Source: a virus (Duplodnaviria; Heunggongvirae; Uroviricota; Caudoviricetes). Taken from it: DNA of 64,000 bases. Positions 21,334-41,951 of this stretch are shown here, one piece after another. Numbering within the stretch: the first letter of the stretch is position 1; each line of letters begins with the position of its first letter. The DNA lies in the IMG/VR virus record IMGVR_UViG_3300033153_011579. One strand, written 5' to 3'. Position numbers and translations under genes: made by a program. The notes under the pieces are model-generated. The model was not told the DNA's origin. It searched no databases and was given only the letters and a program-made list of their open reading frames with translations.

Positions 21334-21366
21334 CCGCTACAGATTGGATATTGGTAAGCTCGAGCA

Positions 21367-22555: not shown

Positions 22556-22577
22556 GTATACTCCGCGTGCGACAAGG

Positions 22578-24215: not shown

Positions 24216-24217
24216 CG

Positions 24218-26061: not shown

Positions 26062-26062
26062 C

Positions 26063-26266
26063 TCAATCCTCCCTCGTATATTTGTCTAAGAGCGCCTGCT
26101 GCTCCTTGGTGAGTTCTTCTCCGATCTGGGTCAGCATGACGACGTGCCAGAACTCGCACATCTCCCGCTGGGCGTCGTCGCACATTATTTGGAACTCGTC
26201 GGTGATCGTCTCGCCTTCTTCGAGCGGCGGCGCTTTGATCTCGACGGTCCAGGTGATCTCAGTCAC
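26063..26266 (-). CDS. Small acidic all-alpha protein, possible minimal MazG-like fold
   Basis: LEEGETITDEF…QREMCEFWHVVMLTQIGEELTKEQQALLDKY loosely matches the ExxE…ExxE helices of MazG; weak. Confidence 0.25.
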   Translation of the reverse strand: MTEITWTVEIKAPPLEEGETITDEFQIMCDDAQREMCEFWHVVMLTQIGEELTKEQQALLDKYTRED

Positions 26267-27368: not shown

Positions 27369-28219
27369 AGGATCTCCTCGCCGTCGGAGGGATCCGTCGC
27401 GCTGGACCGCCGCGTCGTTTTTCCGTAGTTGGCCAAGATCGTCGAGGCGATCGTCCCGGCGACATCCGTGTGGCGCTGGGCCGGCAGGAGGTCGTCACCG
27501 ATGAGCGCCTTCCACGAGTCGACCGTCTCGGGCTGGCTACCGCGGGCGGTCTCCGAGATGTTGATGTGAAAGACGTGGTACTTCTCACGCGCCGACTCGA
27601 GCAGCTCTCGGGACGTGACGTCCTGGTACTGGCCGGGGCCCATGATCTCCTGCAGGTCGCGGCTTGCTAAGCCGTTGAGGACCGGCTCGTCGCCGATGGT
27701 GAACAGGAAGCCGGGCTTGTTCCTATTTTTAAGGCAGTCGATCGCCGTGTGTCTCGCGGCGAAATACCAGGCGAGCATGTAGCTCTCGCCCTCGTTCCCC
27801 CCGCCGTGGCCTTCGAGGTAGACGTCGGTCAGCCAGCGGTCGAGCAGGTCGTCGCTCGATTCGAACTGCCCGACCTGGAGCGGGGCCTCGTCGCACGTGT
27901 GGTCGCCGATGGCCAGGAACAGGACTTGCGGGTCCTCGACGCCCTTGGCGATTATGGTCTCCATGATCTGCGGCAGCCCCTTCTTCACGAGCTCGTGCGG
28001 GACCGACCCCATCGACCCGGTGACGTCGAGCGCGATGATGATCGCGAGCGAGTTCGGGTGCTCTTCGGAATCGCACGACTCGCGTAGCGTGATCCCGTGG
28101 GGGCTCATGGCGTTGTGGATCGTCCGCTGCTTGAAGATCTGCTCGCGAGGGGCGTGTACGTAATTTAGCGACTCCGACCTCACAGCGCGGGCTGTGCTGT
28201 TGTATGTTCCGCCGCCCAT
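27365..28219 (-). CDS. von Willebrand factor A (vWA) domain protein
   Basis: MIDAS motif LAIIIALDVTGSMGS; start relocated to ATG 28219 with SD GGAGGTGAG. Confidence 0.55.
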   Translation of the reverse strand: MGGGTYNSTARAVRSESLNYVHAPREQIFKQRTIHNAMSPHGITLRESCDSEEHPNSLAIIIALDVTGSMGSVPHELVKKGLPQIMETIIAKGVEDPQVLFLAIGDHTCDEAPLQVGQFESSDDLLDRWLTDVYLEGHGGGNEGESYMLAWYFAARHTAIDCLKNRNKPGFLFTIGDEPVLNGLASRDLQEIMGPGQYQDVTSRELLESAREKYHVFHINISETARGSQPETVDSWKALIGDDLLPAQRHTDVAGTIASTILANYGKTTRRSSATDPSDGEEIL

Positions 28220-28220
28220 C

Positions 28221-28562
28221 TCACTCACCTCCAAACAGGTAGTCGTATCGCTTCTGGGCGATGTCCAGCTTGATCTCGGTGTTCCGGATCTTCACGCCGA
28301 GCTCGACGTCCTTGGCGACGTACTCGTCCGAGTTGAAGTCGCTGGCGAGCACCAGGCTGTCGGCCGAGGTGGGGGACAGGTCGAGCATGTTCTCCTGCTC
28401 CCTCGCCATCTTCCTTATCTGTAATTGCAGGTCTTCGATCCGCCGCTTGTAGATCAGCTCCGTGTCCTCGCCGATAGCCTCGGCTCGGTCGTTGCGGATC
28501 TTCTTGTTGTTGCGCTTCAGTGAAGACAGAAACGCGCCTTCTGTTTTCTCTTCTTCAGTCAT
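28221..28562 (-). CDS. Hypothetical coiled-coil protein (113 aa)
   Basis: ORF. Confidence 0.5.
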   Translation of the reverse strand: MTEEEKTEGAFLSSLKRNNKKIRNDRAEAIGEDTELIYKRRIEDLQLQIRKMAREQENMLDLSPTSADSLVLASDFNSDEYVAKDVELGVKIRNTEIKLDIAQKRYDYLFGGE

Positions 28563-28620
28563 CTTTTCTCTCCCTTACTCGTGTGCCGTTGGCACCTTGG
28601 GGTTTGTTGACTTCTATCGC

Positions 28621-28977
28621 TCATAGCTCGAGCCCTCTCCACCAGTCCGACCTGGTCAGAGCAGGGATGCCTATTTCTTTCATCTTCTTGGTGAGCTGCT
28701 TGTTCATCTGGCCGTTGTTGAGGGGTCTGGAGGTCGAATATCGCTCGGCCGAATCGGCGTGGAAACCGAGAGACGACCGGCCTCTGCCGAGCCGCTCGAT
28801 CATCTTGACGGCGTCCATGTCCCAGCTCTTGTTGTGAACATCCTGGCACTCGAGCACCGCGCGCTGGGCGAGCTCGACGATGCATTTCTTACAAAAATCT
28901 CCCTCGTCGCGCCAGGGGATCATGTGCGAGGGGCGGATGTCGACACCGCAACGCGGGCAGTTTGCCTGCTCAGCCAT
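28621..28977 (-). CDS. Zn-finger protein (118 aa)
   Basis: MAEQANCPRCG…CKKC; SD GAGGAG upstream of ATG 28977. Confidence 0.5.
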   Translation of the reverse strand: MAEQANCPRCGVDIRPSHMIPWRDEGDFCKKCIVELAQRAVLECQDVHNKSWDMDAVKMIERLGRGRSSLGFHADSAERYSTSRPLNNGQMNKQLTKKMKEIGIPALTRSDWWRGLEL

Positions 28978-29164
28978 TTTTTTGTAACTCCTCGTGAGCA
29001 ATCTTCACTCCGCAGCAGACTTCGTAGTATCCGTCGTCGGTAGCGATCTCGGTCAGGCGGTATCCTAACTCTTCCTCTTCCTCGTGGCACGACCCGCAGC
29101 ATCTGGTCTCGAGACCGAATTTTTGTGCCGCTGCCGCACAGCCGCCGAGGTACTTATCAGCCAT
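28970..29164 (-). CDS. Small Cys-rich protein (64 aa)
   Basis: CC.SC…CCG pattern. Confidence 0.4.
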   Translation of the reverse strand: MADKYLGGCAAAAQKFGLETRCCGSCHEEEEELGYRLTEIATDDGYYEVCCGVKIAHEELQKNG

Positions 29165-29477
29165 CGGACTTCTCGGCGTCCGGCTCTGGGAAGTCGTGCT
29201 GAGTACCAACCATGGTGATGGCCACGAACTCGGCGGCTGGACGGTTGTGGAGGGCGCGTGAGGCTTGCACGAACTCCGGCACGATGCGGCCTTTGAAGTT
29301 GTTCAAAACGGTGGTGCAGAGCCCGTTGCCTTTTTCCTCTTGGTTTTCGAAGTTGAACGACGCGACCATGGGGAGCTGGTGCTCATTGCAGATCGCAATG
29401 ATCTTCGTCATCAGCGGGCTGATCTGCTCGTCGTGCACGGCTTCGAGGTCGAAGTGTTCTTGCTCTTCTTTACTCAT
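29157..29477 (-). CDS. Hypothetical acidic protein (106 aa)
   Basis: ORF. Confidence 0.5.
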   Translation of the reverse strand: MSKEEQEHFDLEAVHDEQISPLMTKIIAICNEHQLPMVASFNFENQEEKGNGLCTTVLNNFKGRIVPEFVQASRALHNRPAAEFVAITMVGTQHDFPEPDAEKSDG

Positions 29478-29478
29478 C

Positions 29479-30102
29479 TCAAAAGCTCTTCCTACCGGTC
29501 AGCTTCGTGACCAGTTTTCCAATTTCGTCTGGCGTGGGCGCGTCGGGATCCGCCTCGGTCGACCCGGGCAAGAGGTGGGCGTCCTGCGCCGGCCGCAGAC
29601 TCGGGCACAGCACCTGTGCTGCTCCTGCCGTGAGCCGCCCCTTGTCGACCGCGGCCTTGATGGTTGACTCGCGCGAGCTGACGTCGTGCCCCAGGCTGAC
29701 CAGCCACGCGGGCTTCTCGCTCGAGTCTCGCCGGCTCGCGATCTTCTTCCTGTAGATTTCCAAAAACGCAACGCGGGCCGCCACGCGGTCGGTCATCTGG
29801 CGCACCGCCTCGAACGCCTCGGCGATCTCCTGCGTCCAGACGGTCGTGTCGTGCTCGGAGTGCGGGCAGAGGGCCCAGGCCTCTTGTGGGTCCGGCCAGC
29901 CGGTGTCCACCCGCTCGAGGATCGCAGCGAGGGTGAGACGACGGCTCAACTCCCGCCGGCACCGACGAAGCGCGTGCAGCACGACGTCGTCCGGATACAA
30001 GGACAATTCCTCGACCATCTCGGCTGTCGCCGCCTCGGAGAGCTCGGTCGCGCAGATCTCGGCGGTGACCGCCAAGGCGATCACGAGATTACTCTTCTTC
30101 AT
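29479..30102 (-). CDS. Hypothetical protein downstream of rep (about 207 aa)
   Basis: Start chosen at MKKSNLVIALAV…; start uncertain. Confidence 0.4.
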   Translation of the reverse strand: MKKSNLVIALAVTAEICATELSEAATAEMVEELSLYPDDVVLHALRRCRRELSRRLTLAAILERVDTGWPDPQEAWALCPHSEHDTTVWTQEIAEAFEAVRQMTDRVAARVAFLEIYRKKIASRRDSSEKPAWLVSLGHDVSSRESTIKAAVDKGRLTAGAAQVLCPSLRPAQDAHLLPGSTEADPDAPTPDEIGKLVTKLTGRKSF

Positions 30103-31111
30103 CTTCTTCAGCTTTGTATTTGTCGCGGAGTTTTCTCGCGACGTCCCCCGTGGTCGCCCGGCGGTCCGACGCACGCGCCGCGCCGTCGGTTATCTGTGAC
30201 CCGGTGGCCCACTCGGTCCTCACGGTCTCGGCGTCGACGAGCAGGGTGGGGAGGGCGTGGCCCTTCTTCACGTACCAGCCCTTGTTCATCGAGACGTAGT
30301 GCGCAACGACCTGCTCGGCGTCGGCGGCACCCAGGCGCTCGATGATGCGCCTTATGGCCGTGTTGGCCAGCGCGTTGCGCACAGGCGGAGTGCCGTACCG
30401 GAGCTTATAGGCGGCCGAATAGGCCTCCCAAACTCTCCCTGCTATCACCAGCCTCTCCTCCTTCGGCTTCGCCTTCGGTTTTTTCCTAGCTTCAGGTTTT
30501 TTCTCAACCGGGGTCACGGGCGCTTGCGCGCGTGAAGGATCCGGATCTCTCCCGTCGGGTTCCCCTCCGGGATCCCTTTCTGGATCTGGATCTGCCTCTG
30601 ATCTCTGCCTCTGCTTCTGCCTCTGCCTCTGCATGGCGTTACTATCGTTACTGGGCGTTACAGGGGGGTTACTAGGTGTTACATCAGCGTTACCAAGCGT
30701 TACATCAGCGTTACCATTACCTTTTTCATCCTCTTTTTTCCTCTCCCTGTACCTCCTTACCCTCTCAGCGGTTTTTTCTCGCCTATCGTCCGCCGAGCAC
30801 AGCTGCCGGTACTTCTCGCTGTTCAGCACCTTCCAGCCGCCGTCCACCGGGGCGATCCGCCGGCCCTCGTAATCCGGGGTCCTCGAGTGCTCGTCTGGAC
30901 TCATCAGCCGCTCGAGAGCTTCTTTGCAAAGGTCGAGGTCCACCCGCGCCTCGTGGGAGAGGCCGGGGACGCTCGCGCTCACGATCCCGTCTCTGTCCAT
31001 CAGCGCGAGCATCGTGATCCACACCAACCGGACGTGGTCCTCTTCGCAAACCCAGATCGACGACTGGAGAATCGAACTGTGCAACTTCGTAAAACCTCTG
31101 GTCATGGACAC
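30089..31111 (-). CDS. Putative replication initiator / replisome-organizer-like protein carrying internal iterons
   Basis: N-terminus FTKLHSSILQSSIWVCEEDHVRLVWITMLALMDRDGIV resembles phage replication-initiator N-domains. The basic linker is encoded by the GTTAC iteron array. Confidence 0.5.
   Translation of the reverse strand: MSMTRGFTKLHSSILQSSIWVCEEDHVRLVWITMLALMDRDGIVSASVPGLSHEARVDLDLCKEALERLMSPDEHSRTPDYEGRRIAPVDGGWKVLNSEKYRQLCSADDRREKTAERVRRYRERKKEDEKGNGNADVTLGNADVTPSNPPVTPSNDSNAMQRQRQKQRQRSEADPDPERDPGGEPDGRDPDPSRAQAPVTPVEKKPEARKKPKAKPKEERLVIAGRVWEAYSAAYKLRYGTPPVRNALANTAIRRIIERLGAADAEQVVAHYVSMNKGWYVKKGHALPTLLVDAETVRTEWATGSQITDGAARASDRRATTGDVARKLRDKYKAEEDEEE
30636..30716. repeat. Iteron array: 8 x GTTAC at 9-11 bp spacing inside the rep gene (candidate origin)
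   Basis: GTTAC starts at 30638, 30647, 30657, 30668, 30678, 30689, 30699 and 30710 (mean spacing about 10.3 bp). Flanked by a (CTGCCT)n tract. Confidence 0.7.
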
Positions 31112-31130
31112 CAGTGTCCTTTCTTGAACT

Positions 31131-31382
31131 TCAGCTTTCAGATCCGTAGGTGTCTTTCATGTATTGACGAAGCAACGTCTCGAGCTTCCCGAGCTCCCGC
31201 TTCGACGTCGTTACCGCCGCCGGCCAGTTTGACCAGAACTCCTTTAGCTCCTCGAAGAGCAGCACACTCGCCGGCGACCCCCGGTTCACGATGCGCAGCA
31301 GCACGGTCAAAATTCGCAGGTTTGTTTTCGTCAGCATGGCCTTGAACGCCATCGCCGTATCGATCTTGTCCATGAACCCCAT
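31131..31382 (-). CDS. Hypothetical protein (83 aa)
   Basis: ORF. Confidence 0.45.
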   Translation of the reverse strand: MGFMDKIDTAMAFKAMLTKTNLRILTVLLRIVNRGSPASVLLFEELKEFWSNWPAAVTTSKRELGKLETLLRQYMKDTYGSES

Positions 31383-31390
31383 GCGTCACC

Positions 31391-31651
31391 TCACCCTACC
31401 GGCCGCTTGGATCCGGTATCTCCGTAAATACTGATCGACGGCATGATGATCACCGACCAGTTCTGCCGGTAGTCGATCCCACCATCGCGCCACTTGTACT
31501 GAAAACCCCACGCCACATTCGGGCTGTTGAGCATCTCGGCCTGCATCGACTCGTTGTCGATCAGCGCGGCCATCGTCTGATGCGGCCCGAACCTCCCGAC
31601 CAGCTCGTCGACCAGCGGCTGGAGCTCAGCGTCCTTCGTTGCCAACCCCAT
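31391..31651 (-). CDS. Hypothetical protein (86 aa)
   Basis: ORF. Confidence 0.5.
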   Translation of the reverse strand: MGLATKDAELQPLVDELVGRFGPHQTMAALIDNESMQAEMLNSPNVAWGFQYKWRDGGIDYRQNWSVIIMPSISIYGDTGSKRPVG

Positions 31652-31833
31652 CAGGAGACCTCCCCACCGAGGGTTTTGACCTTGCCCTCGATCAGGATGA
31701 TCCTCTTCGCCTGCTTCTCGTTGACCTTCTTGTACTCGCGGATCGCGGTGTCCCGCTGGTCGACCTGCTCCTTGAGGTTGGCGATCTTCTCGCGCTGGTT
31801 TTTTGCAAGCTTCTCTCTCGTGTTCATCGACAT
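31651..31833 (-). CDS. Small coiled-coil protein (60 aa)
   Basis: Start region GAGGAGGACTGAGATGTCGA duplicated at the next gene. Confidence 0.5.
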   Translation of the reverse strand: MSMNTREKLAKNQREKIANLKEQVDQRDTAIREYKKVNEKQAKRIILIEGKVKTLGGEVS

Positions 31834-31834
31834 C

Positions 31835-32173
31835 TCAGTCCTCCTCTGCGATCCGCTTGGCCACGCACAACTCCTCGGCCTGGCGCAGGGCCTTGGTCAT
31901 CGCCACGGAGTGGTCCAACTTGCCCATCTCCTTTAACGCCTGGATTAGTCCGTACTTCGATTGGGACACGCACACCGCCGCGTGCTTGCACGCCGACAAC
32001 TGGACGTCGAGGTCGTGCATCCCGGCTACCAGGGCCGCCACGTCGTCCTCGAGCGCGTCCACGTCGGCCTTGGCATTTTTTAAAACGTTCATGGTGACAC
32101 CAGCGTAGGTGGCCGAGGCAACCGCCAGCAAGACCATCACCGACAGCGCAACCTGTAAACTCGATCTCGACAT
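31835..32173 (-). CDS. Secreted/periplasmic protein with a signal peptide (112 aa)
   Basis: MSRSSLQVALSVMVLLAVASATYA; identical SD/start context to the 31833 gene. Confidence 0.5.
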   Translation of the reverse strand: MSRSSLQVALSVMVLLAVASATYAGVTMNVLKNAKADVDALEDDVAALVAGMHDLDVQLSACKHAAVCVSQSKYGLIQALKEMGKLDHSVAMTKALRQAEELCVAKRIAEED

Positions 32174-32174
32174 C

Positions 32175-32462
32175 TCAGTCCTCCTCGTTTCCTTTGCTGA
32201 CCGACGGACACCCAATCATGATGAGCTCCGCCCTGATCTCGGCCTTCAACTTGATCTTTCGGAGTAGCTCGCTGAGAGGATCACAGGCTAACCCAATCAA
32301 AAAGCTTTTTTCCGGGTGGTCGACGAGAATTATGGCGAGACCAGAGATCGACTTCAGCGCATGGTCGGCCAGCGGGCCCACCATCGGGTCGTCGGCGATC
32401 ATCGCTAACGCCTCCTCGGTCAACTCCGGTAGGTCCCGTCCCTTGATGTCGTCCAGACTCAT
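32175..32462 (-). CDS. Hypothetical acidic protein (95 aa)
   Basis: ORF. Confidence 0.45.
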   Translation of the reverse strand: MSLDDIKGRDLPELTEEALAMIADDPMVGPLADHALKSISGLAIILVDHPEKSFLIGLACDPLSELLRKIKLKAEIRAELIMIGCPSVSKGNEED

Positions 32463-32836
32463 AGTGAGGCCTCCTCACTTTCTGCGCAGGCCAGCCAGCG
32501 CTCCCACAGGTCGTCGTTCGCTCTCGACAGGTCGCGCACTATCTCCGCGCACTCCTCCCGACACGTCTCGATGGTCGGGGCGGCTGCCGCCTCGATGCAC
32601 AGCCGGAACTCTCGCGAGCGACACTCTTCGGACTGAGTCCTCGAGTAGTCGTGGGCCGAGCCGGGGCAGATCTCGTCGACCACCTCACCACACGTCTTCT
32701 CGATCGGCTCCGGGCAGTCGGTCTCGCACCGAGGAACGAAGAACGTTGCGATGACACAGCCGACCGCGATGCCGATGATCATGAACACGATGGCCAGCGC
32801 GATCATGCCGCCCTCTGTCAGTTTTCCGTCAGCCAT
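32459..32836 (-). CDS. Membrane-anchored Cys-rich protein (125 aa)
   Basis: N-terminal TM plus Cys-rich ectodomain; paralogue of the 8684..9052 product. Confidence 0.55.
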   Translation of the reverse strand: MADGKLTEGGMIALAIVFMIIGIAVGCVIATFFVPRCETDCPEPIEKTCGEVVDEICPGSAHDYSRTQSEECRSREFRLCIEAAAAPTIETCREECAEIVRDLSRANDDLWERWLACAESEEASL

Positions 32837-32839
32837 GAC

Positions 32840-33718
32840 CTACCTCTTGGCCGGCGACACTACAGGAATCGAGCTCCCCTCGCCCGTGGCGATGACCTTG
32901 TCGCCGGGCCCGACGCGTTTATAAAGCGTCTTCTTGGCTTCGATCTCTCGCAGCGCAAGGTACTTGTCGGTGAGCGCGCCCCCCATGATCTTCACGTAGA
33001 CCGCCTCGGACTCCGCCTCGGCCGTCCTGACCGCCTTCATCTTCTCGGCGACCTTCAGCCGGTTGTCGGCCTGGAGCAGCTCCATCGCCTGCTTCGCCTT
33101 CTCCTCGTCGATCTCGATCTCTCGCCGGCGCTTCTTTTCGACGGCCTTGGTGATGACCTCCGGGTAGTCGAAGTTCGAGGTGACGACGCTCACGAGCTGC
33201 ATCGGCGTCCCCTTCAGCGAGGCGTGCAGCTGCTTGTGAATCTCTTTCTGGATCGCGTCCCGGTTTTCTCTGATCTGCGTCGTCGAGTATTTGCTCACGA
33301 TGCCACGCGCGATCGACCGAGCCTCGGGCTTCACGTACACGTTGTACAAGCTCTCGAACCCGAGTGCCGCCGCGTCGTACTCATCCCATCGCTCCATCTT
33401 CGACCCCTGGCGATTCAGGAGCTCCTTGATCGCAGATCCGTCTGCCGAGACCAGCCGCGTCCTCGTCACCAAATTGAACCTGAAGTTCAGGTCGTCCGAG
33501 CACAGGACGCTCATCTTCTCCTCGATGGCGTCCTCCTTCGTGTCGACCAGCTGCATCGAGTCGCGACCCCAGCACCCGTGGTGACCGGGTTGTAACACCT
33601 CGCCCGTCAGCCCTCCCGGGGTCTGTACCATCCCCACCCAGCCCGCAGGAACTACCTCGTTGCAACCGATGACCAAAAACGCCGCCAGGAACATTCCCAA
33701 AACACATGCTGATTTCAT
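32840..33718 (-). CDS. SPFH/Band-7 (stomatin/prohibitin-like) lipoprotein
   Basis: Lipobox LVIGC; SPFH region …KAVEKKRRREIEIDEEKAKQAMELLQADNRLKVAE…; start at 33718 (ATGA overlap, SD AGAGAGG). Confidence 0.6.
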   Translation of the reverse strand: MKSACVLGMFLAAFLVIGCNEVVPAGWVGMVQTPGGLTGEVLQPGHHGCWGRDSMQLVDTKEDAIEEKMSVLCSDDLNFRFNLVTRTRLVSADGSAIKELLNRQGSKMERWDEYDAAALGFESLYNVYVKPEARSIARGIVSKYSTTQIRENRDAIQKEIHKQLHASLKGTPMQLVSVVTSNFDYPEVITKAVEKKRRREIEIDEEKAKQAMELLQADNRLKVAEKMKAVRTAEAESEAVYVKIMGGALTDKYLALREIEAKKTLYKRVGPGDKVIATGEGSSIPVVSPAKR

Positions 33719-34077
33719 TGCCGAGCCTCTCTTTCTTCGGTGGTGAAGTCCACCTTGGAGCCACCGCGAACGCACGCGATGACTTGTTTGAGTTCTGCGA
33801 TCACAAACCGACCGAGACCGATCCTGTCGAGGTCGATGATGAGGGGCGGTGTCGTGTAGCCACGATCGTTGATCCTCACACGGAAGTTAACCCAGTCGCC
33901 GACCTTCACCCTGGTAAACCACCCGCGCACGGCGACCACCTCCCCGCGGAGGGTGTTTGTTTTCTCCGAGAATTTATCTCCGCAGTCGTCGGCGTGGATC
34001 CGCACGATCATCGACTTTCTCGGCATCGACGTGACGATGCCCTTGATGTCCTCCCTCTGAATTTCTCTATCGGCCAT
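33715..34077 (-). CDS. Putative OB-fold NfeD-like partner of the SPFH protein
   Basis: GEVVAVRGWFTRVKVGDWVNFRVRIND beta-rich segment; sits between a membrane protein and the SPFH gene. Confidence 0.35.
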   Translation of the reverse strand: MADREIQREDIKGIVTSMPRKSMIVRIHADDCGDKFSEKTNTLRGEVVAVRGWFTRVKVGDWVNFRVRINDRGYTTPPLIIDLDRIGLGRFVIAELKQVIACVRGGSKVDFTTEEREARQ

Positions 34078-34510
34078 CGTCCCGCTCCTTCGCCCGCTCG
34101 AGCGCGGCTTCGATGTACTCGTTCGCCTGCTGGCGCGCCTCGTCCGGTGGCTCGTCCTGCTGACGAAGATGCTCCGGTTTCTTCGCCTCGCGGTCGGCGG
34201 CGAGCTCCTCGGCCGTTGGCTCGTCTGGTTTTTCGAGGTTGAGCTCGGTGCGCCCCTCCTCGGAGGGAGGCGTGATGTCTGGCGCTATCCCCGCTCCGTG
34301 ACCGAACAGAAGGCCGTGCACGAACAAGCCCTCGATGGTCAGCAACAACGATGCTACGAACAACCACCGGAGCGTCTTCGCGTTCAACACCGGGTAGCCA
34401 GCCTTGATGCGACCCCTGATCCCGAGCGCCAGGAAGAAAGCCGTGATTCCAAACAGGATCGCCACGATGACGATCACCAGCACCTGCATCAGATAGTTCA
34501 GCGAAAGCAT
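34067..34510 (-). CDS. Polytopic membrane protein (147 aa)
   Basis: Three or four hydrophobic helices, acidic C-terminus. Confidence 0.55.
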   Translation of the reverse strand: MLSLNYLMQVLVIVIVAILFGITAFFLALGIRGRIKAGYPVLNAKTLRWLFVASLLLTIEGLFVHGLLFGHGAGIAPDITPPSEEGRTELNLEKPDEPTAEELAADREAKKPEHLRQQDEPPDEARQQANEYIEAALERAKERDDGR

Positions 34511-34520
34511 CAGTTACCTC

Positions 34521-34922
34521 CTATGCCTTGATGATTTTCGAGGTCGGTGCCGAGCCGGCCATCATCACCTGCTCGGCTGCAACCCGGAAGCCGATCTGGA
34601 ACATCTTGGCCGCCTCCACCGGGAAGACGTTGTCGTACGTCGCACCGGTGGCCAGGACGTGCCTCGCAAACTGGTCTCCGCAGATCCGACCGACCAGACC
34701 GATCATGACGTTCTGCTCGAGGCCGCCGCGACACTGGATCCGCATGGTGTCGAAGATCGCATCCTCGATCGCCGGCAGGACGTCTTTCTTGGTGCGGTCG
34801 ATCAGGTTGGGAGTGTCCTTGCCGAGGTAGGAGTTTCCCAGATGCAGGAGGAACACACCCCAGATTTTGGTGAACTCCGTCACCTGCTTTTTGAGGTCTG
34901 CCGGAAAGGTATTAAAAGTCAT
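34521..34922 (-). CDS. Hypothetical protein (133 aa)
   Basis: Start at 34922 (ATGA overlap). Confidence 0.45.
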   Translation of the reverse strand: MTFNTFPADLKKQVTEFTKIWGVFLLHLGNSYLGKDTPNLIDRTKKDVLPAIEDAIFDTMRIQCRGGLEQNVMIGLVGRICGDQFARHVLATGATYDNVFPVEAAKMFQIGFRVAAEQVMMAGSAPTSKIIKA

Positions 34923-35146
34923 CGGGCGTCTCCTTGCCGTCGCGACCTGTCGCGACCCAGCTCCTGGCTGAAGGCGATCGTCCCAGGAATCCACTCCATA
35001 TTTTTGGCGTTCGTTTTTACGATGTTGAAGCAGTCCTGCACGATGCGCGACAGCGACACCTCGTACTTGTCGGCCTGCGCTCGCATCTCATCGAGCAACC
35101 CCTCTGGCAGATAGATCGACTGTTTTCTTTTGTCTAATACGGCCAT
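34919..35146 (-). CDS. Ribbon-helix-helix (CopG-like) regulator
   Basis: KQSIYLPEGLLDEMRAQADKYEVSLSRIVQD; start at ATG 35146. Confidence 0.5.
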   Translation of the reverse strand: MAVLDKRKQSIYLPEGLLDEMRAQADKYEVSLSRIVQDCFNIVKTNAKNMEWIPGTIAFSQELGRDRSRRQGDAR

Positions 35147-35147
35147 G

Positions 35148-35513
35148 TCAGTCACCTCCAAGCTTGAAGAGTGCGTCCATGAACCGCACGCCGGTCGAGA
35201 CGCACTTGAGCACGACCTTCGCTCCGTCCGACGGCAGCGTGTCGACCAGCTCGTCGAGAGCCTTGTAGTTGACACGGCCGGTCGCTGGGTCGAACGCAAT
35301 CTTTACCAGGCGCTCCTGATCCGGGGTCATCCCGGTATGGGTGTTCTTCTCGATGAGCTCGTCGTCTCTGATCGAAAACTCTCGACGAATCTCGGCGAGC
35401 TTCTGGGCCATGCTCGCCACCTCGTTCTCGGCACCCGGAGTCTGACTGTCGACGTGAGCCTTCAGCTTCTGGCAGAGGGCGACCGCCTGCTCTCTATTCA
35501 TCTTCGTCGGCAT
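35148..35513 (-). CDS. Hypothetical protein (121 aa)
   Basis: ORF. Confidence 0.5.
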   Translation of the reverse strand: MPTKMNREQAVALCQKLKAHVDSQTPGAENEVASMAQKLAEIRREFSIRDDELIEKNTHTGMTPDQERLVKIAFDPATGRVNYKALDELVDTLPSDGAKVVLKCVSTGVRFMDALFKLGGD

Positions 35514-35751
35514 CGGCCTCTTCTTCCTCGTCCTCCTCGTCCTTCTCGTCGTCGTCGGCCGGAGCGGAGTCCGAGCTCTCCTCGACGAGGAAGATCAGAG
35601 TCAGCGTGTCCGCCTCGGCGTCCATATGCGGACGCACCGAGCAGTTCTCAGGGATGTCCGAAAATTCTTTCTTCGCCGCGACGATCAGGATGTTGACCAT
35701 CTCTTCGGTGCTGAACTCGACCTCGTTTTGAGATGTTTTTCTACGAATCAT
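35494..35751 (-). CDS. Hypothetical protein with poly-acidic tail
   Basis: Start at internal ATG 35751. Confidence 0.4.
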   Translation of the reverse strand: MIRRKTSQNEVEFSTEEMVNILIVAAKKEFSDIPENCSVRPHMDAEADTLTLIFLVEESSDSAPADDDEKDEEDEEEEADADEDE

Positions 35752-35956
35752 TTTCTGTCTCCTCGGTGATGTCCTCACAGTTTTTCTCGGCCATCTGGCA
35801 GAGAGCACATCTTCTCGCCAACCCGTTTTCCTCGTTCAAGTGAAGCTCGAATAAAAAGCACGACCAGAAGGGAGCGTCGCCACCGCGCCACGGACATTTG
35901 GGGTCGCAGTGCTGCGCTGTCAAGGGGACGATCGGTAGAAGGATCCGCCCCATCAT
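35741..35956 (-). CDS. Small Cys-rich protein (71 aa)
   Basis: MMGRILLPIVPLTAQHCDPKCPW…CALC; ATGATGA overlap. Confidence 0.45.
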   Translation of the reverse strand: MMGRILLPIVPLTAQHCDPKCPWRGGDAPFWSCFLFELHLNEENGLARRCALCQMAEKNCEDITEETENDS

Positions 35957-36152
35957 CAATTGCCCTTGTCCCAGGCGTCCCAGATTTTCTGTGTTTTCTG
36001 AATCACCTCGCCGAGCTCGTCGATGGATTCGATCTCGTCGGGCTCGAGCTGGGACGGCCCGCTGATGAGTTGGAGTTGTGCCAAATGTGCAGCCATCAGG
36101 TTCACGCAGCCGTCGCGAATGAATTTGTTGATCATCGACCGCTTGCTGATCA
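35956..36152 (-). CDS. First gene of the leftward operon (65 aa)
   Basis: SD GAGAGGAAACACC-ATG adjacent to the divergent control region. Confidence 0.45.
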
Positions 36153-36465
36153 TGGTGTTTCCTCTCGCCGCGGAGCCATCTAGCCACACCGTTACCTACA
36201 TGTCAACACAGTGGCAAAAAAACTTAGCACTTGACAGGGTGGGAGAGATGGATACAGTGTGTGCAATGTATTCAGAGGTATCACACTGCACTCGCCACCA
36301 CCACGCAGTTGCTAATAGGTGCTCATATAAAGGATCACCTATTGTTGTAGCACAGGTGTGTGTAGTACGGCATGCTACATGTCCCTACCCACCCCCCCCT
36401 AAAAAACGAAAAAAAACGAGTAGTTTAAAAAAAACGATCACCTCCGGTCACGTTCAAAGGATTTT
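36153..36465. promoter_or_regulatory. Divergent AT-rich control region between the leftward and rightward operons
   Basis: Back-to-back TTGACA boxes (rc at 36203-36208 and + at 36230-36235). Hairpin AATAGGTG-N14-CACCTATT. GTAGCAC/GTAGTAC/GCTAC repeated half-sites. A poly-C/poly-A tract before the 36466 SD. Confidence 0.55.
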
Positions 36466-37026
36466 ATGAAAATGCATGAGCACAATTTCACAGTCCAGTT
36501 GCGCGATAAAGAAGGCGGGGTCCTCGCCGAGGTCATCACCACAGCGACCGCCATGCGCGCTGGTGAGAAAAAACGCCTGCTCGAAGGCGTTCCCGAGCTC
36601 GAGATGAAGCCCCCCGGCAGCCTTTTCGTCGGCGACACCCTCCTGCGAGATCAGGAAGTAGTCGACCACGAGGAAAAATTCGACATCTGGCTCGATGTGA
36701 AAGAGGTGTTCGACAAGGTCGAGGACGACCCCGACCGGCTACCCGGGAAAGTCTGCCACAACTGCTACATCTGGGACCACGCCGAGGGCAAGCGTATTTT
36801 CACGATGCCGACCCACCGGTACGACAACGGGTCCTTTGCGATGTACGAGGAGATCACCAAGGCCGTTTCTGCGAAAAACCACGCGCGGACCTTGACCCCC
36901 GACAACGTCGGCTACTGCTCGAGCCACCTGAAGCTCTGCGCCGAGTCGGGGGTCGCCTGCAAGAACTACGACCCGAAGCCGTGGATCGCTCGATTTCGTA
37001 ACTGGTGGATCAGGGCGTTCAGATAA
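36466..37026 (+). CDS. Hypothetical Cys/His-rich protein, first rightward gene (186 aa)
   Basis: SD AAAGGA; follows the AT-rich control region. Confidence 0.6.
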   Translation: MKMHEHNFTVQLRDKEGGVLAEVITTATAMRAGEKKRLLEGVPELEMKPPGSLFVGDTLLRDQEVVDHEEKFDIWLDVKEVFDKVEDDPDRLPGKVCHNCYIWDHAEGKRIFTMPTHRYDNGSFAMYEEITKAVSAKNHARTLTPDNVGYCSSHLKLCAESGVACKNYDPKPWIARFRNWWIRAFR

Positions 37027-37586
37027 TGACGGACTTCAAAACACGCCGGGGCGACATCCCCGTACGCACCGAGCAGGAGCTGCTCGATGAACACTGGGTC
37101 TGCGCCTTCTGCCACGAAAAAACCCACGGGCCCGACTGCACCCACTGCGGGTCGCCTCGTCAGGACGCCCTGATCGTCGTGCCCGACGGCGAGGTCGGCG
37201 AGGAGCTGATCGAACGTCTTCGCACCAACCGCCGCTGTGGACACTGCGTCTATTTTTCGCACCGCAAAGGCCAGGAAGAGATGAACTCCCCCAGGGAGCA
37301 ACTCTTCCTCAAGCTCATCAAAGAGATGGAGATGCGGGAGGTCGCCGCCAACATGGACTGGAAGCTCGCCGGACTCTGCGAGCAGTGGTCCGGTGGTCAG
37401 GAAGACCTCTTCATCACCTGCGCCAACTCCCCGGCGCGCTGTGCCAAGAAACACCTCGGCGATGTGCCGTACGCCGAGAAAGATCAGAACGTCGAGTGCC
37501 CCGCGTACAAACCCCGCGGTGGCGACGGCAAGGAGATCCGGTCGTATCGCATGGTCAAGAACTCCAGAACGGTGGGGACCGACTGA
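37026..37586 (+). CDS. Zn-binding protein (186 aa)
   Basis: CAFCHEKTHGPDCTHCG, CGHC; TAATG overlap. Confidence 0.55.
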   Translation: MTDFKTRRGDIPVRTEQELLDEHWVCAFCHEKTHGPDCTHCGSPRQDALIVVPDGEVGEELIERLRTNRRCGHCVYFSHRKGQEEMNSPREQLFLKLIKEMEMREVAANMDWKLAGLCEQWSGGQEDLFITCANSPARCAKKHLGDVPYAEKDQNVECPAYKPRGGDGKEIRSYRMVKNSRTVGTD

Positions 37587-40512: not shown

Positions 40513-40872
40513 ATGAAAGTCATCATCCACCCGCTTGGCGAGCGCGTACTCGTCGAGCCGTTCGACCTCGAAGGGGCGACCGCCGCCGGCGTCATCATCC
40601 CGCTCTCCAAGGGCTCCCACAAGCTCGGGAAGATAGTCGCCGTCGGCGACGACCTCGAGCCGTTGTGTGAAGAGACCGAAGCGGAGAGCGAGCTCGACGA
40701 CGACGAGGAGCTCGACCCCGTGAGCTCTTGGGGCCCCCCCCCTGTCGCGGTCGGCGACAGCATCATCTACAACCGCTTCCTCCCGCTCATCCTCCCCACC
40801 GATGATTCGAAAATCGAGAAGCACATGGTTGCGCTCGAGGACATCCAGGGCCGGGTCGAGATCGAAAAGTGA
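40513..40872 (+). CDS. groES-like: GroES-like co-chaperonin (Hsp10 family) with an acidic insert
   Basis: IHPLGERVLVEPFDLEGATAAGVIIPLS…KIVAVGDD…VAVGDSIIYN…IEKHMVALEDI matches the GroES pattern (PLgDRVLV…T.gGI.iP…G.VvAvG). Confidence 0.6.
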   Translation: MKVIIHPLGERVLVEPFDLEGATAAGVIIPLSKGSHKLGKIVAVGDDLEPLCEETEAESELDDDEELDPVSSWGPPPVAVGDSIIYNRFLPLILPTDDSKIEKHMVALEDIQGRVEIEK

Positions 40873-40874
40873 AC

Positions 40875-41207
40875 ATGTTCGAAAAACCGGTGGTCGTCGG
40901 GCCGCTGAGAGAGGAAGAGAAAATGTCAGCAGATAGAACCATCGACGCGGGGAAGGCGCGAGAGGCTGCCAAGGAGATCGGGGGACTCTTCTACGAGACC
41001 AAGGTGCAGACCAAGAAGCAGGCACGTGAGGTCGCACTCAGGATGGCCGATATGCCGATCGACTGGCACGGTATCATCGAGATCGTCGAGGACGGCCTCT
41101 TCGTGCACCACGGCTCACTCGAGACGGTAAAGTTGCTCCAGATTGCCGAGGGTGCCTGGACCGACCAGACGCTGGCCCTCACGTTTGTCGGCAAGCTGTT
41201 CGACTGA
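40875..41207 (+). CDS. Hypothetical protein (110 aa)
   Basis: ATG 40875 just after the GroES-like stop. Confidence 0.5.
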   Translation: MFEKPVVVGPLREEEKMSADRTIDAGKAREAAKEIGGLFYETKVQTKKQAREVALRMADMPIDWHGIIEIVEDGLFVHHGSLETVKLLQIAEGAWTDQTLALTFVGKLFD

Positions 41208-41299
41208 TCCTCAGCGAAAAACACCAATTCACGAAAAAAAAGAAGTCGTCCCAACACCCTGATAATCATGGGCAAACTCCTTAACAAGCCCATGTGTGC

Positions 41300-41348
41300 A
41301 AAAAAACACACTTGACTACAATGTGAGATATAGATTACACCAACACAC
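41300..41348 (+). promoter_or_regulatory. AT-rich intergenic patch with a TTGACT box upstream of the transglutaminase-like gene
   Basis: TTGACTACAATGTGAGATATAGATTACACC; the -10 assignment is ambiguous. Confidence 0.25.
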
Positions 41349-41951
41349 ATGAACCCAGAGGTGCATCGTGGGGTCACGAGCATCAAGCAACGACTCGACC
41401 TGATAGCACAAAGGATCGATGTCAGCGTTCGTAGACCCCAGAAATCCTTAGACGGACGGCAGTTCATGCTCAAGGATTTCACTCACTTCATCGTTCGCGG
41501 TACCCCACAACACGGCCCAGCATCAGAAGAAGAGCCCATCAACGCGGTGTTCAGCTACGTGAAAAACAACATCGAGTACCGCCAGGATCCGACGGGCTAC
41601 GACTACTACATGGGTGCCGGGCGCATCATCAACTCCAAGGCCGGCGACTGCGACGACCTCACCATCATCATCTGCGCGATGCTCGACAGCATCGGCTACC
41701 GCACTGGAGCTCGGGTGATCTCTCCCGACGGGCACCAGTGGCACATCTACTCGCTCGCCGGGGTCGACCCTGCGTTCAACGGGGAGCCCTCGAGAGTCGT
41801 ACCGCTCGACGCTGCCTACGGTGACGAGCCCGGCTGGGAGCCGTCGAACAGATTTCGAAAGTACGAGCAGCAATGCACCTTCTTTAAGGGCAAGGTCGTT
41901 GGCTACAAGGTCGTCCGGGACGGCGGGTCCTGGTTCAATTTTTTCAGGTAG
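41349..41951 (+). CDS. Transglutaminase-like cysteine-protease-fold protein
   Basis: GDCDDLTIIICAMLDSIGYRTGARVI (G.C.D…G.pAR core) followed by His (GHQWHIY) and Asp. Confidence 0.5.
   Translation: MNPEVHRGVTSIKQRLDLIAQRIDVSVRRPQKSLDGRQFMLKDFTHFIVRGTPQHGPASEEEPINAVFSYVKNNIEYRQDPTGYDYYMGAGRIINSKAGDCDDLTIIICAMLDSIGYRTGARVISPDGHQWHIYSLAGVDPAFNGEPSRVVPLDAAYGDEPGWEPSNRFRKYEQQCTFFKGKVVGYKVVRDGGSWFNFFR

What the first reader, a model, noticed from the sequence alone, without database searches (positions are those of the whole stretch)
36153..36465. Divergent control region with back-to-back TTGACA boxes, repeated GTAGYAC half-sites and a C8/A8 tract
- This is the only long AT-rich intergenic region in the window, separating the leftward and rightward operons.
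- Two perfect -35 hexamers face outward about 20 bp apart.
- Between them and the 36466 SD lie three GTAG(C/T)AC-type half-sites, an 8-bp-stem hairpin, and CCCCCCCC followed by AAAAAAAACGAAAAAAAACG.
- This looks like a genetic-switch or operator region for the RHH regulators encoded nearby.
Basis: seen in the sequence. Interest (0 to 1): 0.55.

Follow-up and report, generated by a model that had tools for sequence, protein, structure and literature searches.

The report
Divergent promoter pair of uncultured phage

Summary
The sequence features are mostly there. The two TTGACA boxes at 36201-36206 (minus strand) and 36231-36236 (plus strand) are almost certainly the -35 elements of divergent housekeeping-sigma promoters, which I call P_L and P_R.

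Evidence:
- **Spacing.** Each box is followed at 16-18 bp by a -10-like hexamer: TACAGT for P_R, and a weak TAGATG for P_L.
- **Conservation.** In the one diverged relative that spans the gap (L003, 58-70% protein identity, with an unrelated leftward gene), only three blocks survive:
  - the P_L -35 plus TGTAGGT;
  - an A7 tract plus the P_R -35;
  - the P_R -10 plus 13 nt downstream.

  The rest of the gap is 11-37% identical.
- **Third lineage.** L146 keeps GTTGACATGTA in front of a leftward gene, and has TTGACA-17-TAGATT about 230 nt upstream of the gene-1 homologue.

The hairpin, GTAGYAC sites, C8 tract and A-tract/CG repeats sit at about +50 to +170 of a ~206-nt A-rich leader. They are not conserved, match no Rfam family, and the leader as a whole folds no better than shuffled sequence.

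One of the two proposed RHH proteins is real (a CdbA homologue), but nothing links it to this region. No cI/cro-like pair flanks the gap.

Side lead: P_R shares its geometry (-10, then 7 nt, then ATG) with a second conserved promoter at 41312-41351, which drives a gene that has no Shine-Dalgarno sequence. P_R transcripts may therefore start at an AUG.

The parts
36151..36153 (-). Start codon (ATG) of the first leftward gene (35956-36153, 65 aa).
   Evidence: The JGI gene call on L002 gives the same 65-aa product.
36160..36164 (-). Shine-Dalgarno sequence (GAGGA, within GAGAGGAAA) of the leftward gene, 6 nt before its ATG.
   Evidence: The GCG..GA..GGA pattern is kept in all three P_L leaders.
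36177..36182 (-). P_L -10-like hexamer TAGATG. It matches the consensus at only 3/6 positions and lacks the final T. The predicted start is near 36170.
   Evidence: The homologous position in L003 is TATATT, with an 18-nt spacer and 11/12 matches overall. L146 has GATAGT with a 17-nt spacer.
36194..36208 (-). Conserved block 1, TGTTGACATGTAGGT on the minus strand. It holds the P_L -35 TTGACA (36206..36201) plus the flanking TGTAGGT, and contains the palindrome ACATGT.
   Evidence: 15/15 identical in L003. GTTGACATGTA is invariant in the window, L003 and L146.
36215..36236 (+). Conserved block 2, C-A7-CTTAGCAC-TTGACA. The A7 tract is at 36216-36222 and the P_R -35 at 36231-36236. Relative to the predicted starts, the A7 tract lies at about -43 to -49 for P_R and -46 to -52 for P_L.
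   Evidence: 36217-36236 is 18/22 identical in L003. An A6-A9 tract lies upstream of every P_R-type promoter seen.
36253..36271 (+). Conserved block 3, TACAGTGTGTGCAATGTAT. It holds the P_R -10 TACAGT (36253-36258), the predicted start at A36265/A36266, and ATG 36266-36268. It also holds TGTGnGCAA and the imperfect palindrome ATACAnTG-N4-CAnTGTAT.
   Evidence: The scan gives TTGACA-16-TACAGT at 10/12. The block is 18/19 identical in L003 and unique in the window.
36266..36469 (+). Possible 5'-terminal upstream ORF of 67 codons. It begins at the predicted transcript start, and its TGA stop overlaps ATG 36466. GC3 is 0.35 and the peptide is not conserved.
   Evidence: It is the longest of the three frames in all three lineages (67, 31 and 54 codons), with shuffle probabilities of 0.024, 0.17 and 0.077.
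36313..36344 (+). Leader hairpin AAUAGGUGC..GCACCUAUU followed by UUGUUGU. It is specific to this lineage.
   Evidence: dG -11.4, z -3.0. It is absent from L003 and was not called as a terminator.
36346..36379 (+). GTAGCAC / GTAGTAC direct copies and the TGTAGCA/TGCTACA inverted repeat.
   Evidence: As RNA it folds no better than shuffles (z +0.19). Not conserved.
36392..36436 (+). C8 tract, then A6-CG, A8-CG and A8-CG. This is the A/C-rich, G-poor 3' part of the leader.
   Evidence: A content is 33% in the window leader and 42% in the L003 leader, against 21% for the whole window. The tract lengths are identical in L002.
36457..36474 (+). SD AAGGA (36457-61), extra ATG 36466, and the conserved start ATG 36472 of gene 1 (184 aa, cysteine-rich, unknown function).
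41293..41351 (+). Related second promoter module inside the rightward operon: TGTGTGCA-A7-CACAC-TTGACT (41312-17), 18-nt spacer, TACACC (41336-41), 7 nt, then ATG 41349. That ATG starts a transglutaminase-like gene with no SD. It is listed because its geometry supports the start-site assignment for P_R.
   Evidence: The module is conserved in L145. There is an in-frame stop 6 codons upstream, and the protein is conserved from residue 1 (78% identity).

Best explanation
The gap is a back-to-back pair of divergent promoters read by the host housekeeping (sigma-70/sigma-A type) RNA polymerase.

**P_L (leftward)**
- -35 TTGACA at 36206..36201, an 18-nt spacer, then the -10 TAGATG at 36182..36177.
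- It starts near 36170 and gives a short SD-containing leader of about 17 nt.
- Its operon runs from 36153 to about 16484. It carries small unknown genes, the CdbA-like RHH, a replication-initiator-like protein and a PurA-like enzyme.

**P_R (rightward)**
- -35 TTGACA at 36231-36236, a 16-nt spacer, then the -10 TACAGT at 36253-36258.
- It starts at A36265 or A36266 and gives an A-rich leader of about 206 nt before gene 1 (ATG 36472).
- Its operon is long and rightward. It includes GroES-like, transglutaminase-like and lectin-domain proteins, and is probably a morphogenesis operon.

**Between and around the promoters**
- The conserved A7 tract between the two -35 boxes lies in the UP-element zone of both promoters, at about -43 to -52. 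It probably acts as a shared upstream A/T element or a bend.
- Conservation extends beyond the core hexamers: TGTAGGT next to the P_L -35, and GTGTGnGCAATGTAT after the P_R -10. This suggests an added constraint at each promoter, either a regulator site overlapping the core or, for P_R, a 5'-terminal AUG.

**Shown**
- The motifs, their spacing and their orientation.
- Their selective conservation in two or three lineages.
- Their uniqueness in the window.

**Inferred**
- That the host RNA polymerase uses them, and the exact start sites.
- The UP-element role of the A7 tract.
- Any regulator.

The hairpin, GTAG repeats, C8 and A-tract/CG repeats are lineage-specific leader sequence. At most they tune mRNA stability or translation.
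For: **Promoter motifs**
- The scan finds TTGACA-16-TACAGT (10/12) as the only hit in 35500-37100.
- My whole-window scan finds 8 sigma-70-like hits against 9.5 expected. This one is the joint-best, and it is the only hit that is both intergenic and correctly oriented at an operon head.

**Conservation in L003**
- Only three blocks are conserved, at 100%, 82% and 95% identity. The remaining gap is 11-37% identical.
- The leftward gene in L003 is unrelated, so the P_L block is not coding carry-over.
- An independent scan of L003 calls both promoters: TTGACA-18-TATATT (11/12) and TTGACA-18-TACAGT (10/12). That is 3 hits against 0.2 expected.

**Conservation in L146** (37-44% protein identity)
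- GTTGACATGTA followed at 17 nt by GATAGT lies upstream of a leftward helicase gene.
- TTGACA-17-TAGATT lies about 233 nt upstream of the gene-1 homologue.

**Related module.** A second module with the same layout (A7, CAC-TTGAC, N16-18, TACA, N2+7, ATG) lies at 41293-41351, directly in front of a conserved gene that has no SD. It is conserved in L145.

**Negative results**
- No Rfam family matches, even at E <= 5. No tRNA was found.
- The leader fold z-scores are -1.3 for the window and -0.4 for L003.
Against: - No transcript data exist, so the start sites are predictions.
- The P_L -10 in this window matches the consensus at only 3/6 positions and lacks the -7 T, so the scanner did not call P_L here.
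- Only one diverged sequence (L003) spans the whole gap. L002 is identical to the window, and L146 is rearranged, with a gene and 733 bp inserted between its two promoters.
- Sigma-70-like hits are not enriched in the window overall. The host is unknown, so its promoter consensus is assumed rather than known.
- The conserved flanks could mean the blocks are regulator sites that merely contain TTGACA.
Confidence: 0.72

Rival explanations
1. One reading: this is a lysis/lysogeny-type genetic switch. The GTAGYAC half-sites, the hairpin palindrome and the A/C tracts would be operators for the nearby RHH proteins, which set the balance between the two operons.
For: - The protein at 34919-35146 is a real RHH, with E = 4e-7 to CdbA. 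It is transcribed from P_L, so autoregulation is plausible.
- Two GTAGYAC copies within 22 bp, plus an inverted copy, are locally unusual.
- There is a weak integrase-like match at 82-969.
Against: - The sites lie at +80 to +115 of the P_R leader, not over either core promoter.
- None is conserved in L003 or L146.
- The direct copies are 15 bp apart, which puts them out of helical phase for an RHH tetramer. CdbA binds a direct repeat one helical turn apart (PMC7156744).
- The second proposed RHH has no support.
- No cI/Cro-like pair flanks the gap, and no HTH repressor was found among 117 ORFs.
- The P_L block is kept in L146, where no RHH gene is nearby.
- The integrase match is below Pfam's threshold.
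Confidence: 0.12
2. An add-on to the promoter model: P_R transcripts begin at AUG 36266 and act partly as leaderless mRNA. Ribosomes would load at the 5' end and translate a non-conserved upstream ORF through the ~200-nt leader. In this phage the ORF stops at TGA 36467-69, overlapping ATG 36466. That would couple expression of the rightward operon, or its protection from Rho and RNases, to translation.
For: - Geometry. The -10 is followed by 7 nt and then ATG in both the window and L003, and by 7 nt and then GTG in L146. The same geometry precedes the gene at 41349, which has no SD and cannot start anywhere else.
- Conservation. The conserved 19-mer extends across the ATG.
- Open frames. The frame from that codon is the longest of the three in all three lineages, with shuffle probabilities of 0.024, 0.17 and 0.077.
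- Composition. The leader is G-poor and C/A-rich around 36380-36420.
- Precedent. 5'-terminal uAUGs on SD-led E. coli mRNAs bind 70S ribosomes and can affect the downstream gene (PMC4965119).
Against: - GC3 is 0.35, against about 0.8 in the phage's real genes.
- The peptides are unrelated after residue 8 and differ in length.
- In L003 and L146 the ORF stops 70-90 nt before gene 1.
- The start-like codon in L146 is GTG, which is a poor leaderless start.
- The combined open-frame statistic is only modest, at about p = 0.01.
- The start site is predicted, not mapped.
Confidence: 0.3
3. The conserved blocks are mainly binding sites for a phage-encoded regulator or an alternative sigma factor rather than host sigma-70 promoter elements. 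Candidates are the ACATGT and ACAnTGT palindromes and the TGTGnGCAA motif. The TTGACA matches would then be part of those sites.
For: - Conservation extends well beyond the hexamers, to GTTGACATGTAGGT and TACAGTGTGnGCAATGTAT.
- TGTGnGCAA and ACA(n)TGT recur at the second conserved module, at 41293 and 41317, in both lineages.
- Sigma-70-like sites are not generally enriched in the window.
Against: - The hexamers, the 16-18 nt spacing and the gene orientation fit sigma-70 architecture exactly in six promoter instances across three lineages.
- No sigma factor or RNA polymerase was detected among 117 ORFs.
- TGTGnGCAA occurs only 3 times against 1.4 expected.
- This model and the promoter model are not mutually exclusive, because operators commonly overlap core promoters.
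Confidence: 0.15
4. The region contains the replication origin or the physical genome end (cos, pac or a terminal repeat). The A-tracts and repeats would be origin or packaging signals, not transcription signals.
For: - It is a relatively AT-rich gap with phased A-tracts (36401-36434).
- It is a strand-switch point.
- A replication-initiator-like gene lies in the leftward operon.
- One metagenomic contig (Ga0366832_1005091) ends at window position 36437, just after the last A8-CG.
Against: - No iteron family was found: the repeats are 7-12 nt two-copy matches.
- The A-tract region is not conserved in sequence in L003 or L146.
- Two other assemblies (the window and L002) and L003 read straight through the gap.
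- The contig end sits at homopolymer runs, where assemblies often break.
- Cumulative GC skew has no extremum here.
Confidence: 0.06

Closest known systems
Back-to-back divergent sigma-70 promoters in phage control regions, for example lambda PRM/PR, P22 immI Pant/Pmnt and TP901-1 PR/PL (from general knowledge)
   Same: - Two outward-facing promoters within about 100 bp head two oppositely transcribed operons.
- Conservation overlapping the core elements hints at operators.
- One transcript may start at an AUG, as lambda cI mRNA from PRM does (PMC10491246).
   Different: - No repressor/Cro-type gene pair flanks the gap.
- There are no repeated 14-17 bp operators.
- The -35 boxes are 24 bp apart with a shared A-tract between them, instead of interleaved operators.
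- Lysogeny is not shown.
UP-element-containing strong promoters, for example E. coli rrnB P1 (from general knowledge)
   Same: A conserved A6-A9 tract lies 7-20 bp upstream of a consensus TTGACA in every P_R-type promoter seen.
   Different: - The tract is shorter than the full UP consensus.
- Its distance to the -35 varies by 2-6 bp between lineages.
- Here it sits between two promoters and could serve either or both.
- Its function was not tested.
SD-led mRNAs with a 5'-terminal uAUG, and true leaderless mRNAs (Beck et al. 2016, PMC4965119; lambda cI)
   Same: - ATG lies 7 nt after the -10 hexamer, at the predicted +1/+2.
- A bona fide gene with no SD (41349) has the identical geometry.
   Different: - The start site is not mapped.
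- The upstream-ORF product is not conserved.
- The host, and how often it uses leaderless mRNAs, are unknown.
RHH-controlled phage and plasmid promoters (Arc/Mnt of P22, CopG, omega)
   Same: A genuine RHH protein (CdbA homologue) is encoded in the operon driven by P_L.
   Different: - No operator-like repeat overlaps either core promoter.
- The proposed GTAGYAC sites are in the leader, are out of helical phase, and are not conserved.

Membership tests
Sigma-70/sigma-A type promoter (P_R, 36231-36258) | A -35 hexamer close to TTGACA and a -10 hexamer of type TAnnnT, separated by 16-18 bp. | tested here: met
   TTGACA-16-TACAGT, 10/12 matches. The orthologue in L003 is TTGACA-18-TACAGT.
Sigma-70/sigma-A type promoter (P_R, 36231-36258) | Located upstream of a gene or operon, oriented toward it, and kept under selection. 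| tested here: met
   It heads the rightward block that starts at 36472. The blocks 36215-36236 and 36253-36271 are conserved while neighbouring sequence is at random-level identity.
Sigma-70/sigma-A type promoter (P_R, 36231-36258) | A primary transcript 5' end 6-8 nt downstream of the -10. | not testable with these tools
   No transcript data are available. The predicted start is A36265 or A36266.
Sigma-70/sigma-A type promoter (P_L, 36206..36177) | A -35 hexamer close to TTGACA and a -10 hexamer of type TAnnnT, separated by 16-18 bp. | tested here: inconclusive
   The -35 is perfect and conserved in three lineages. In this window the -10 is TAGATG (3/6, no T at -7), so it failed the scan. 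The orthologues pass: TATATT at 11/12 and GATAGT at 10/12.
Lambdoid-type genetic switch | Divergent promoters flanked by a repressor gene on one side and a Cro-like gene on the other. | tested here: not met
   The flanking genes (65 aa and 184 aa) match no DNA-binding family in Pfam or PHROGs. The left gene is replaced by an unrelated one in L003. No HTH repressor was found among 117 ORFs.
Lambdoid-type genetic switch | Several copies of a palindromic operator interleaved with the promoters. | tested here: not met
   Only short two-copy repeats were found. Single imperfect palindromes overlap the P_L -35 and the P_R -10/+1.
RHH operator (Arc/Mnt/CopG/CdbA type) | An RHH protein encoded in cis. 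| tested here: met
   The protein at 34919-35146 matches CdbA (6sbw) at E = 4e-7 over residues 1-51. Its Pfam RHH_5 and CopG matches are below threshold.
RHH operator (Arc/Mnt/CopG/CdbA type) | Repeated half-sites in helical phase that overlap the regulated promoter, and are conserved wherever the regulator is. | tested here: not met
   The GTAGYAC copies are 15 bp apart, lie at about +83 to +104 relative to the predicted P_R start, and are absent from L003 and L146. Whether the protein binds was not testable.
Known structured RNA leader (riboswitch, attenuator or other Rfam family) | A match to a covariance model, or a fold more stable than shuffled sequence. | tested here: not met
   No Rfam hits at gathering score or at E <= 5. 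Leader z-scores are -1.3 and -0.4. No plus-strand terminator was called.
Leaderless or 5'-uAUG mRNA | A start codon at or within a few nt of the transcript 5' end, with no SD upstream. | tested here: inconclusive
   The geometry (-10, then 7 nt, then ATG) is present at 36266. It is also present at the gene at 41349, which has no SD and is conserved in L003/L145. The 5' end itself is not mapped.

The most novel reading that the evidence does not exclude
This phage lineage may use one promoter design, consisting of an A-tract, CAC-TTGAC, a 16-18 nt spacer, TACAnn, 7 nt and then AUG. That design would put an AUG at the very 5' end of the transcript.
- At 41349 it would make a truly leaderless mRNA for a conserved gene.
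- At P_R it would make a 5'-terminal upstream ORF. Translation of that ORF through the 200-nt A/C-rich leader, ending in an ATGA overlap with gene 1 in this phage, would gate expression of the whole rightward operon.
- The shared TGTGnGCAA / ACAnTGT elements would be sites for one unidentified regulator. That regulator would sit over the start site at P_R and upstream of the -35 at the internal promoter.
Probability: 0.25. Interest if true: 0.5.

Novelty: new member of a known kind. Interest (0 to 1): 0.3.

Why it matters
- **Annotation anchor.** The phage lineage is almost entirely unannotated. It has no DNA or protein match in 50,697 cultured phage records for the genes tested, and nearly all the large proteins tested lack a Pfam or PHROG family. 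Two or three conserved promoters give the first anchor for its transcription map, showing which block is driven from where.
- **Host clue.** The promoters suggest a host with a canonical TTGACA/TAnnnT housekeeping sigma factor, one that tolerates leaderless starts.
- **Wider significance.** Beyond that, this is an ordinary divergent promoter region, and it does not open a long-standing question.

Tried and rejected
**RNA and structure searches**
- Rfam on the whole window at gathering score, and on the gap at E <= 5: no hits.
- tRNA/tmRNA scan: none found.
- RNA folding of the full leaders: not more stable than shuffles. Only the 36313-36344 hairpin stands out, and it is not conserved.

**Searches for more relatives**
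- Phage DNA search over 7.5 kb: no match.
- Protein-anchored locus scans in IMG/VR, JGI metagenomes and GTDB genomes with gene 1, gene 2 and the 681-aa protein: nothing confirmed.
- tblastn of two rightward proteins against cultured phages: no match.
- Exact-motif scans gave only chance hits:
  - The 19-mer gave 0 hits in IMG/VR and 16 unrelated hits in metagenomes.
  - The looser double -35 pattern gave 120 or more chance hits.
- Contigs with gene-2 homologues (L004-L007) have a different upstream gene or are too short to reach the gap.

**Structure prediction**
- Gene 1 gave pLDDT 51. The 681-aa protein gave pLDDT 58 and pTM 0.25.
- Both models are too poor for fold search, so none was run.

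**Z-genome idea**
- I considered that the phage uses diaminopurine, because PHROG 1211 is annotated as PurZ.
- I rejected it. The enzyme is far closer to cellular PurA (E = 3e-24) than to solved PurZ structures (E = 0.006 and 0.5) and keeps the GDEGKG motif. No DatZ or MazZ was found.

**Other repeats in the gap**
- The 9-nt repeat CTACATGTC (36196 and 36375) as a looping operator pair: my rough estimate puts a 9-mer repeat in 312 bp at about 0.2 by chance, and the second copy is absent from L003.
- The minus-strand terminator-like sites in the leader: their count does not exceed shuffles.
Full report
**Context**

The window has 59.5% G+C and looks like part of a phage genome. It has three gene blocks: plus strand from 1 to about 16487, minus strand from 16484 to 36153, and plus strand from 36466/36472 to 64000.

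The leftward block carries:
- a PurA-like adenylosuccinate synthetase;
- a replication-initiator-like protein;
- an SPFH protein;
- a receiver-domain protein;
- an SLT lysozyme;
- a small RHH protein.

The rightward block carries mostly family-less proteins, plus GroES-like, transglutaminase-like, lectin-domain and GP88 matches. A Pfam pass over 117 ORFs found no sigma factor, RNA polymerase, HTH repressor, terminase or portal. The finding is the one divergent gap, 36154-36465.

**Checking the observation**

The features exist, with small corrections:
- TTGACA lies on the minus strand at 36206..36201 and on the plus strand at 36231-36236, with 24 bp between.
- GTAGCAC is at 36347 and GTAGTAC at 36362. 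An inverted TGTAGCA/TGCTACA pair lies at 36346 and 36373.
- A hairpin lies at 36313-36344, with dG -11.4 kcal/mol and z -3.0.
- C8 is at 36392-36399, followed by A6-CG, A8-CG and a third A8-CG (36401-36436).
- The start codon conserved in the relative is ATG 36472, not 36466.
- The gap has the lowest G+C of any gap over 250 bp, but other stretches are equally AT-rich.
- GTAGYAC is not enriched window-wide: 8 found against 4.5 expected.

**Relatives**

This lineage is rare. The 7.5-kb DNA query and two rightward-operon proteins gave no hit in cultured phage records; one replication-block protein (27365-28234) did match 220 records at under 60% identity. Protein-anchored scans of IMG/VR, the JGI metagenome set and GTDB genomes also gave none. 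The protein database gave a handful of homologues, and I fetched their contigs:
- **L002** is an identical copy from a second sample.
- **L001/L008** is an identical copy whose contig ends inside the leader, at window position 36437.
- **L003**, with its probable continuation L145, is a sister lineage. Gene 1 is 58% identical, gene 2 is 68-70%, and the 681-aa protein is 46%.
- **L146** is a third lineage at 37-44% identity.

**Phylogenetic footprint**

I aligned the window gap with L003 (quantified). Three blocks survive:
- 36194-36208, ACCTACATGTCAACA, 15/15 identical. This is the P_L -35 plus TGTAGGT.
- 36215-36236, C-A7-CTT..AG..CTTGACA. 36217-36236 is 18/22 identical. This is the A-tract plus the P_R -35.
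- 36253-36271, TACAGTGTGnGCAATGTAT, 18/19 identical. This is the P_R -10 and the 13 nt after it. AGGTA at 36276-80 is also kept.

Everything else in the gap is 11-37% identical. That includes the hairpin, the GTAG sites, C8 and the A-tract/CG repeats.

The leftward gene in L003 is unrelated to the one here, so the P_L block is regulatory and not coding carry-over.

An independent scan of L003 calls both promoters, TTGACA-18-TATATT (11/12) and TTGACA-18-TACAGT (10/12). That is 3 hits against 0.2 expected. In the window the scan calls P_R (10/12). It does not call P_L, whose -10 is TAGATG.

L146 has a gene and 733 bp of non-coding DNA inserted between its two promoters. It still has GTTGACATGTA followed at 17 nt by GATAGT in front of a leftward helicase gene. 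It also has TTGACA-17-TAGATT about 233 nt upstream of the gene-1 homologue. GTTGACATGTA is invariant in all three P_L copies.

**Mechanism**

The best reading is a back-to-back pair of housekeeping-sigma promoters.
- **P_L** starts near 36170 and gives a leader of about 17 nt with SD GAGAGGAAA. That leader pattern, GCG..GA..GGA, is partly conserved in all three lineages even though the downstream genes differ.
- **P_R** starts at A36265 or A36266 and gives a leader of about 206 nt. A long leader of 185-233 nt is common to all three lineages. Leader sequence is not conserved. A-richness is shared only by the window and L003, at 33% and 42% A against 21% for the window as a whole.
- **The A7 tract** lies at about -43 to -49 of P_R and -46 to -52 of P_L. 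That is the zone where UP elements act (general knowledge). An A6-A9 tract precedes every P_R-type promoter seen.
- **RNA polymerase footprints.** Polymerase footprints on the two promoters would overlap only over this tract, so the promoters could share it or compete for it. This is inference.

**Extra conservation and a second module**

The conserved flanks go beyond what a core promoter needs. While checking other AT-rich gaps I found a second module at 41293-41351. Its layout is TGTGTGCA-A7-CACAC-TTGACT, an 18-nt spacer, TACACC, 7 nt, then ATG.

That ATG must be the start of a transglutaminase-like gene:
- An in-frame stop lies 6 codons upstream, with no other start codon between.
- The protein is 78% identical to its L145 orthologue from residue 1.
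- There is no SD.

The whole module of about 60 nt is conserved in L145, while the sequence upstream of it is not.

P_R has the same geometry: TACAGT, 7 nt, then ATG 36266. So does L003. L146 has TAGATT, 7 nt, then GTG.

This supports the P_R start-site assignment. It also raises the possibility that P_R transcripts begin with an AUG that ribosomes use, as on E. coli mRNAs with 5'-terminal uAUGs (PMC4965119) and on lambda cI mRNA (PMC10491246).

For the upstream-ORF idea:
- The frame opened by that codon is the longest of the three in each lineage, at 67, 31 and 54 codons.
- The shuffle probabilities are 0.024, 0.17 and 0.077.
- In this phage the frame ends at TGA 36467-69, overlapping ATG 36466.

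Against it:
- GC3 is 0.35.
- The peptides are unrelated after residue 8.
- The other two lineages show no stop/start overlap.

I rate this add-on at about 0.3. TGTGnGCAA occurs at the P_R start region and upstream of the internal -35, in both lineages. It is a candidate regulator site, but it occurs only 3 times in the window against 1.4 expected.

The protein at 34919-35146 is a true RHH. It matches Myxococcus CdbA (6sbw) at E = 4e-7, and its Pfam RHH matches are below threshold. It is the fifth gene of the P_L operon. The protein at 22578-22826 has no support.

The proposed half-sites lie in the leader, are not conserved, and are 15 bp apart. CdbA binds a direct repeat one helical turn apart (PMC7156744). 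No repressor/Cro-like pair flanks the gap, and the only lysogeny hint is a sub-threshold integrase match at 82-969.

The model cannot be excluded without binding assays. Nothing here supports it beyond the presence of one RHH gene.

**Other rivals**

- **Structured RNA.** No Rfam hit, and the leader fold z-scores are -1.3 and -0.4.
- **Origin or genome end.** No iterons and no skew extremum. Three assemblies read through the gap. The single contig end at 36437 sits at homopolymer runs. I keep this at about 0.06.

**Verdict**

This is a real control region of an ordinary kind: divergent sigma-70-type promoters with a shared A-tract, in a very poorly known phage lineage. The mildly interesting part is the recurring promoter-to-AUG geometry, which suggests leaderless initiation. 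Interest is 0.3, and the novelty class is a new member of a known kind.

Noticed in passing
window 1136-14481 (27 copies, e.g. 2709-2733, 6490-6514, 8647-8671, 10730-10754, 14457-14481): A 25-nt stem-loop cassette, GTAAGAGAA-N7-TTCTCTGAC, occurs on the plus strand only.
- It occurs 16 times exactly, against 0 expected, and 27 times when mismatches are allowed. It sits at almost every gene junction of the left block.
- The TAA inside its 5' arm usually coincides with the predicted stop codon of the upstream gene.
- The 3' arm is followed by ACGGAGGAG (an SD), and the next ATG comes 3-8 nt later.
- The loop sequence varies between copies, and the cassette is absent from 16.5-64 kb.
- From memory, it resembles the start-associated sequences of cluster K mycobacteriophages. 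This is probably the most unusual feature in the window.
   Followed up: partly
window 41293-41351; L145 3197-3255: A conserved internal promoter-like module (A7, TTGACT, 18-nt spacer, TACACC, 7 nt, ATG) lies directly in front of a transglutaminase-like gene of 200 aa. That gene has no Shine-Dalgarno sequence and has an in-frame stop 6 codons upstream, so its mRNA is probably leaderless or nearly so.
   Followed up: yes
window 26259-27368 (-): The phage encodes a short (369 aa) adenylosuccinate synthetase homologue. PHROG labels its family as PurZ, but it is much closer to cellular PurA (PDB 3hid, E = 3e-24) than to solved PurZ structures (6fm1 at E = 0.006, 7odx at E = 0.5). It keeps the GDEGKG motif. 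There is no evidence here for a diaminopurine genome.
   Followed up: partly
window 34919-35146 (-): A 75-aa RHH protein whose best solved relative is Myxococcus xanthus CdbA, a c-di-GMP-binding nucleoid-associated protein (6sbw, E = 4e-7). It is a possible hint to the host lineage, or to a phage-encoded nucleoid protein.
   Followed up: partly
L146 3600-3800 and 3966-3990: In the third lineage, the 733-bp non-coding stretch upstream of the P_R-like promoter holds three copies of a palindrome of about 35 bp, CAGTGTGGTTCCnGGCCnGGAACCACACT. It also holds three tandem GTGCCACT units. Their complement, CAGTGGCA, also occurs once between the two -35 boxes of the window (36209-36216).
   Followed up: no
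window 36437; L001/L008 position 1: The metagenomic contig Ga0366832_1005091 (24 kb) ends exactly at window position 36437, inside the P_R leader just after the last A8-CG. This could be an assembly break at homopolymers or a hint of a physical genome end.
   Followed up: no
window 62303-62345: Another intergenic perfect TTGACA is followed at 15-16 nt by TAATAA. A GC-rich hairpin, GCTCGCCC-TCA-GGGCGAGC, follows upstream of the gene at 62381. It may be a further promoter or regulatory site in the rightward block.
   Followed up: no
window 82-969 (+): A 295-aa protein has a weak, sub-threshold match to the catalytic part of tyrosine recombinases (Phage_integrase, E = 3.6e-4, 20.8 bits against a cutoff of 27.1). 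It is the only hint of a temperate lifestyle.
   Followed up: no
window 40872-41190 vs L002: The otherwise identical copy L002 differs from the window by a 10-bp length change somewhere between the GroES-like gene and 41190. I inferred this from the shift in coordinate offset between the two copies.
   Followed up: no
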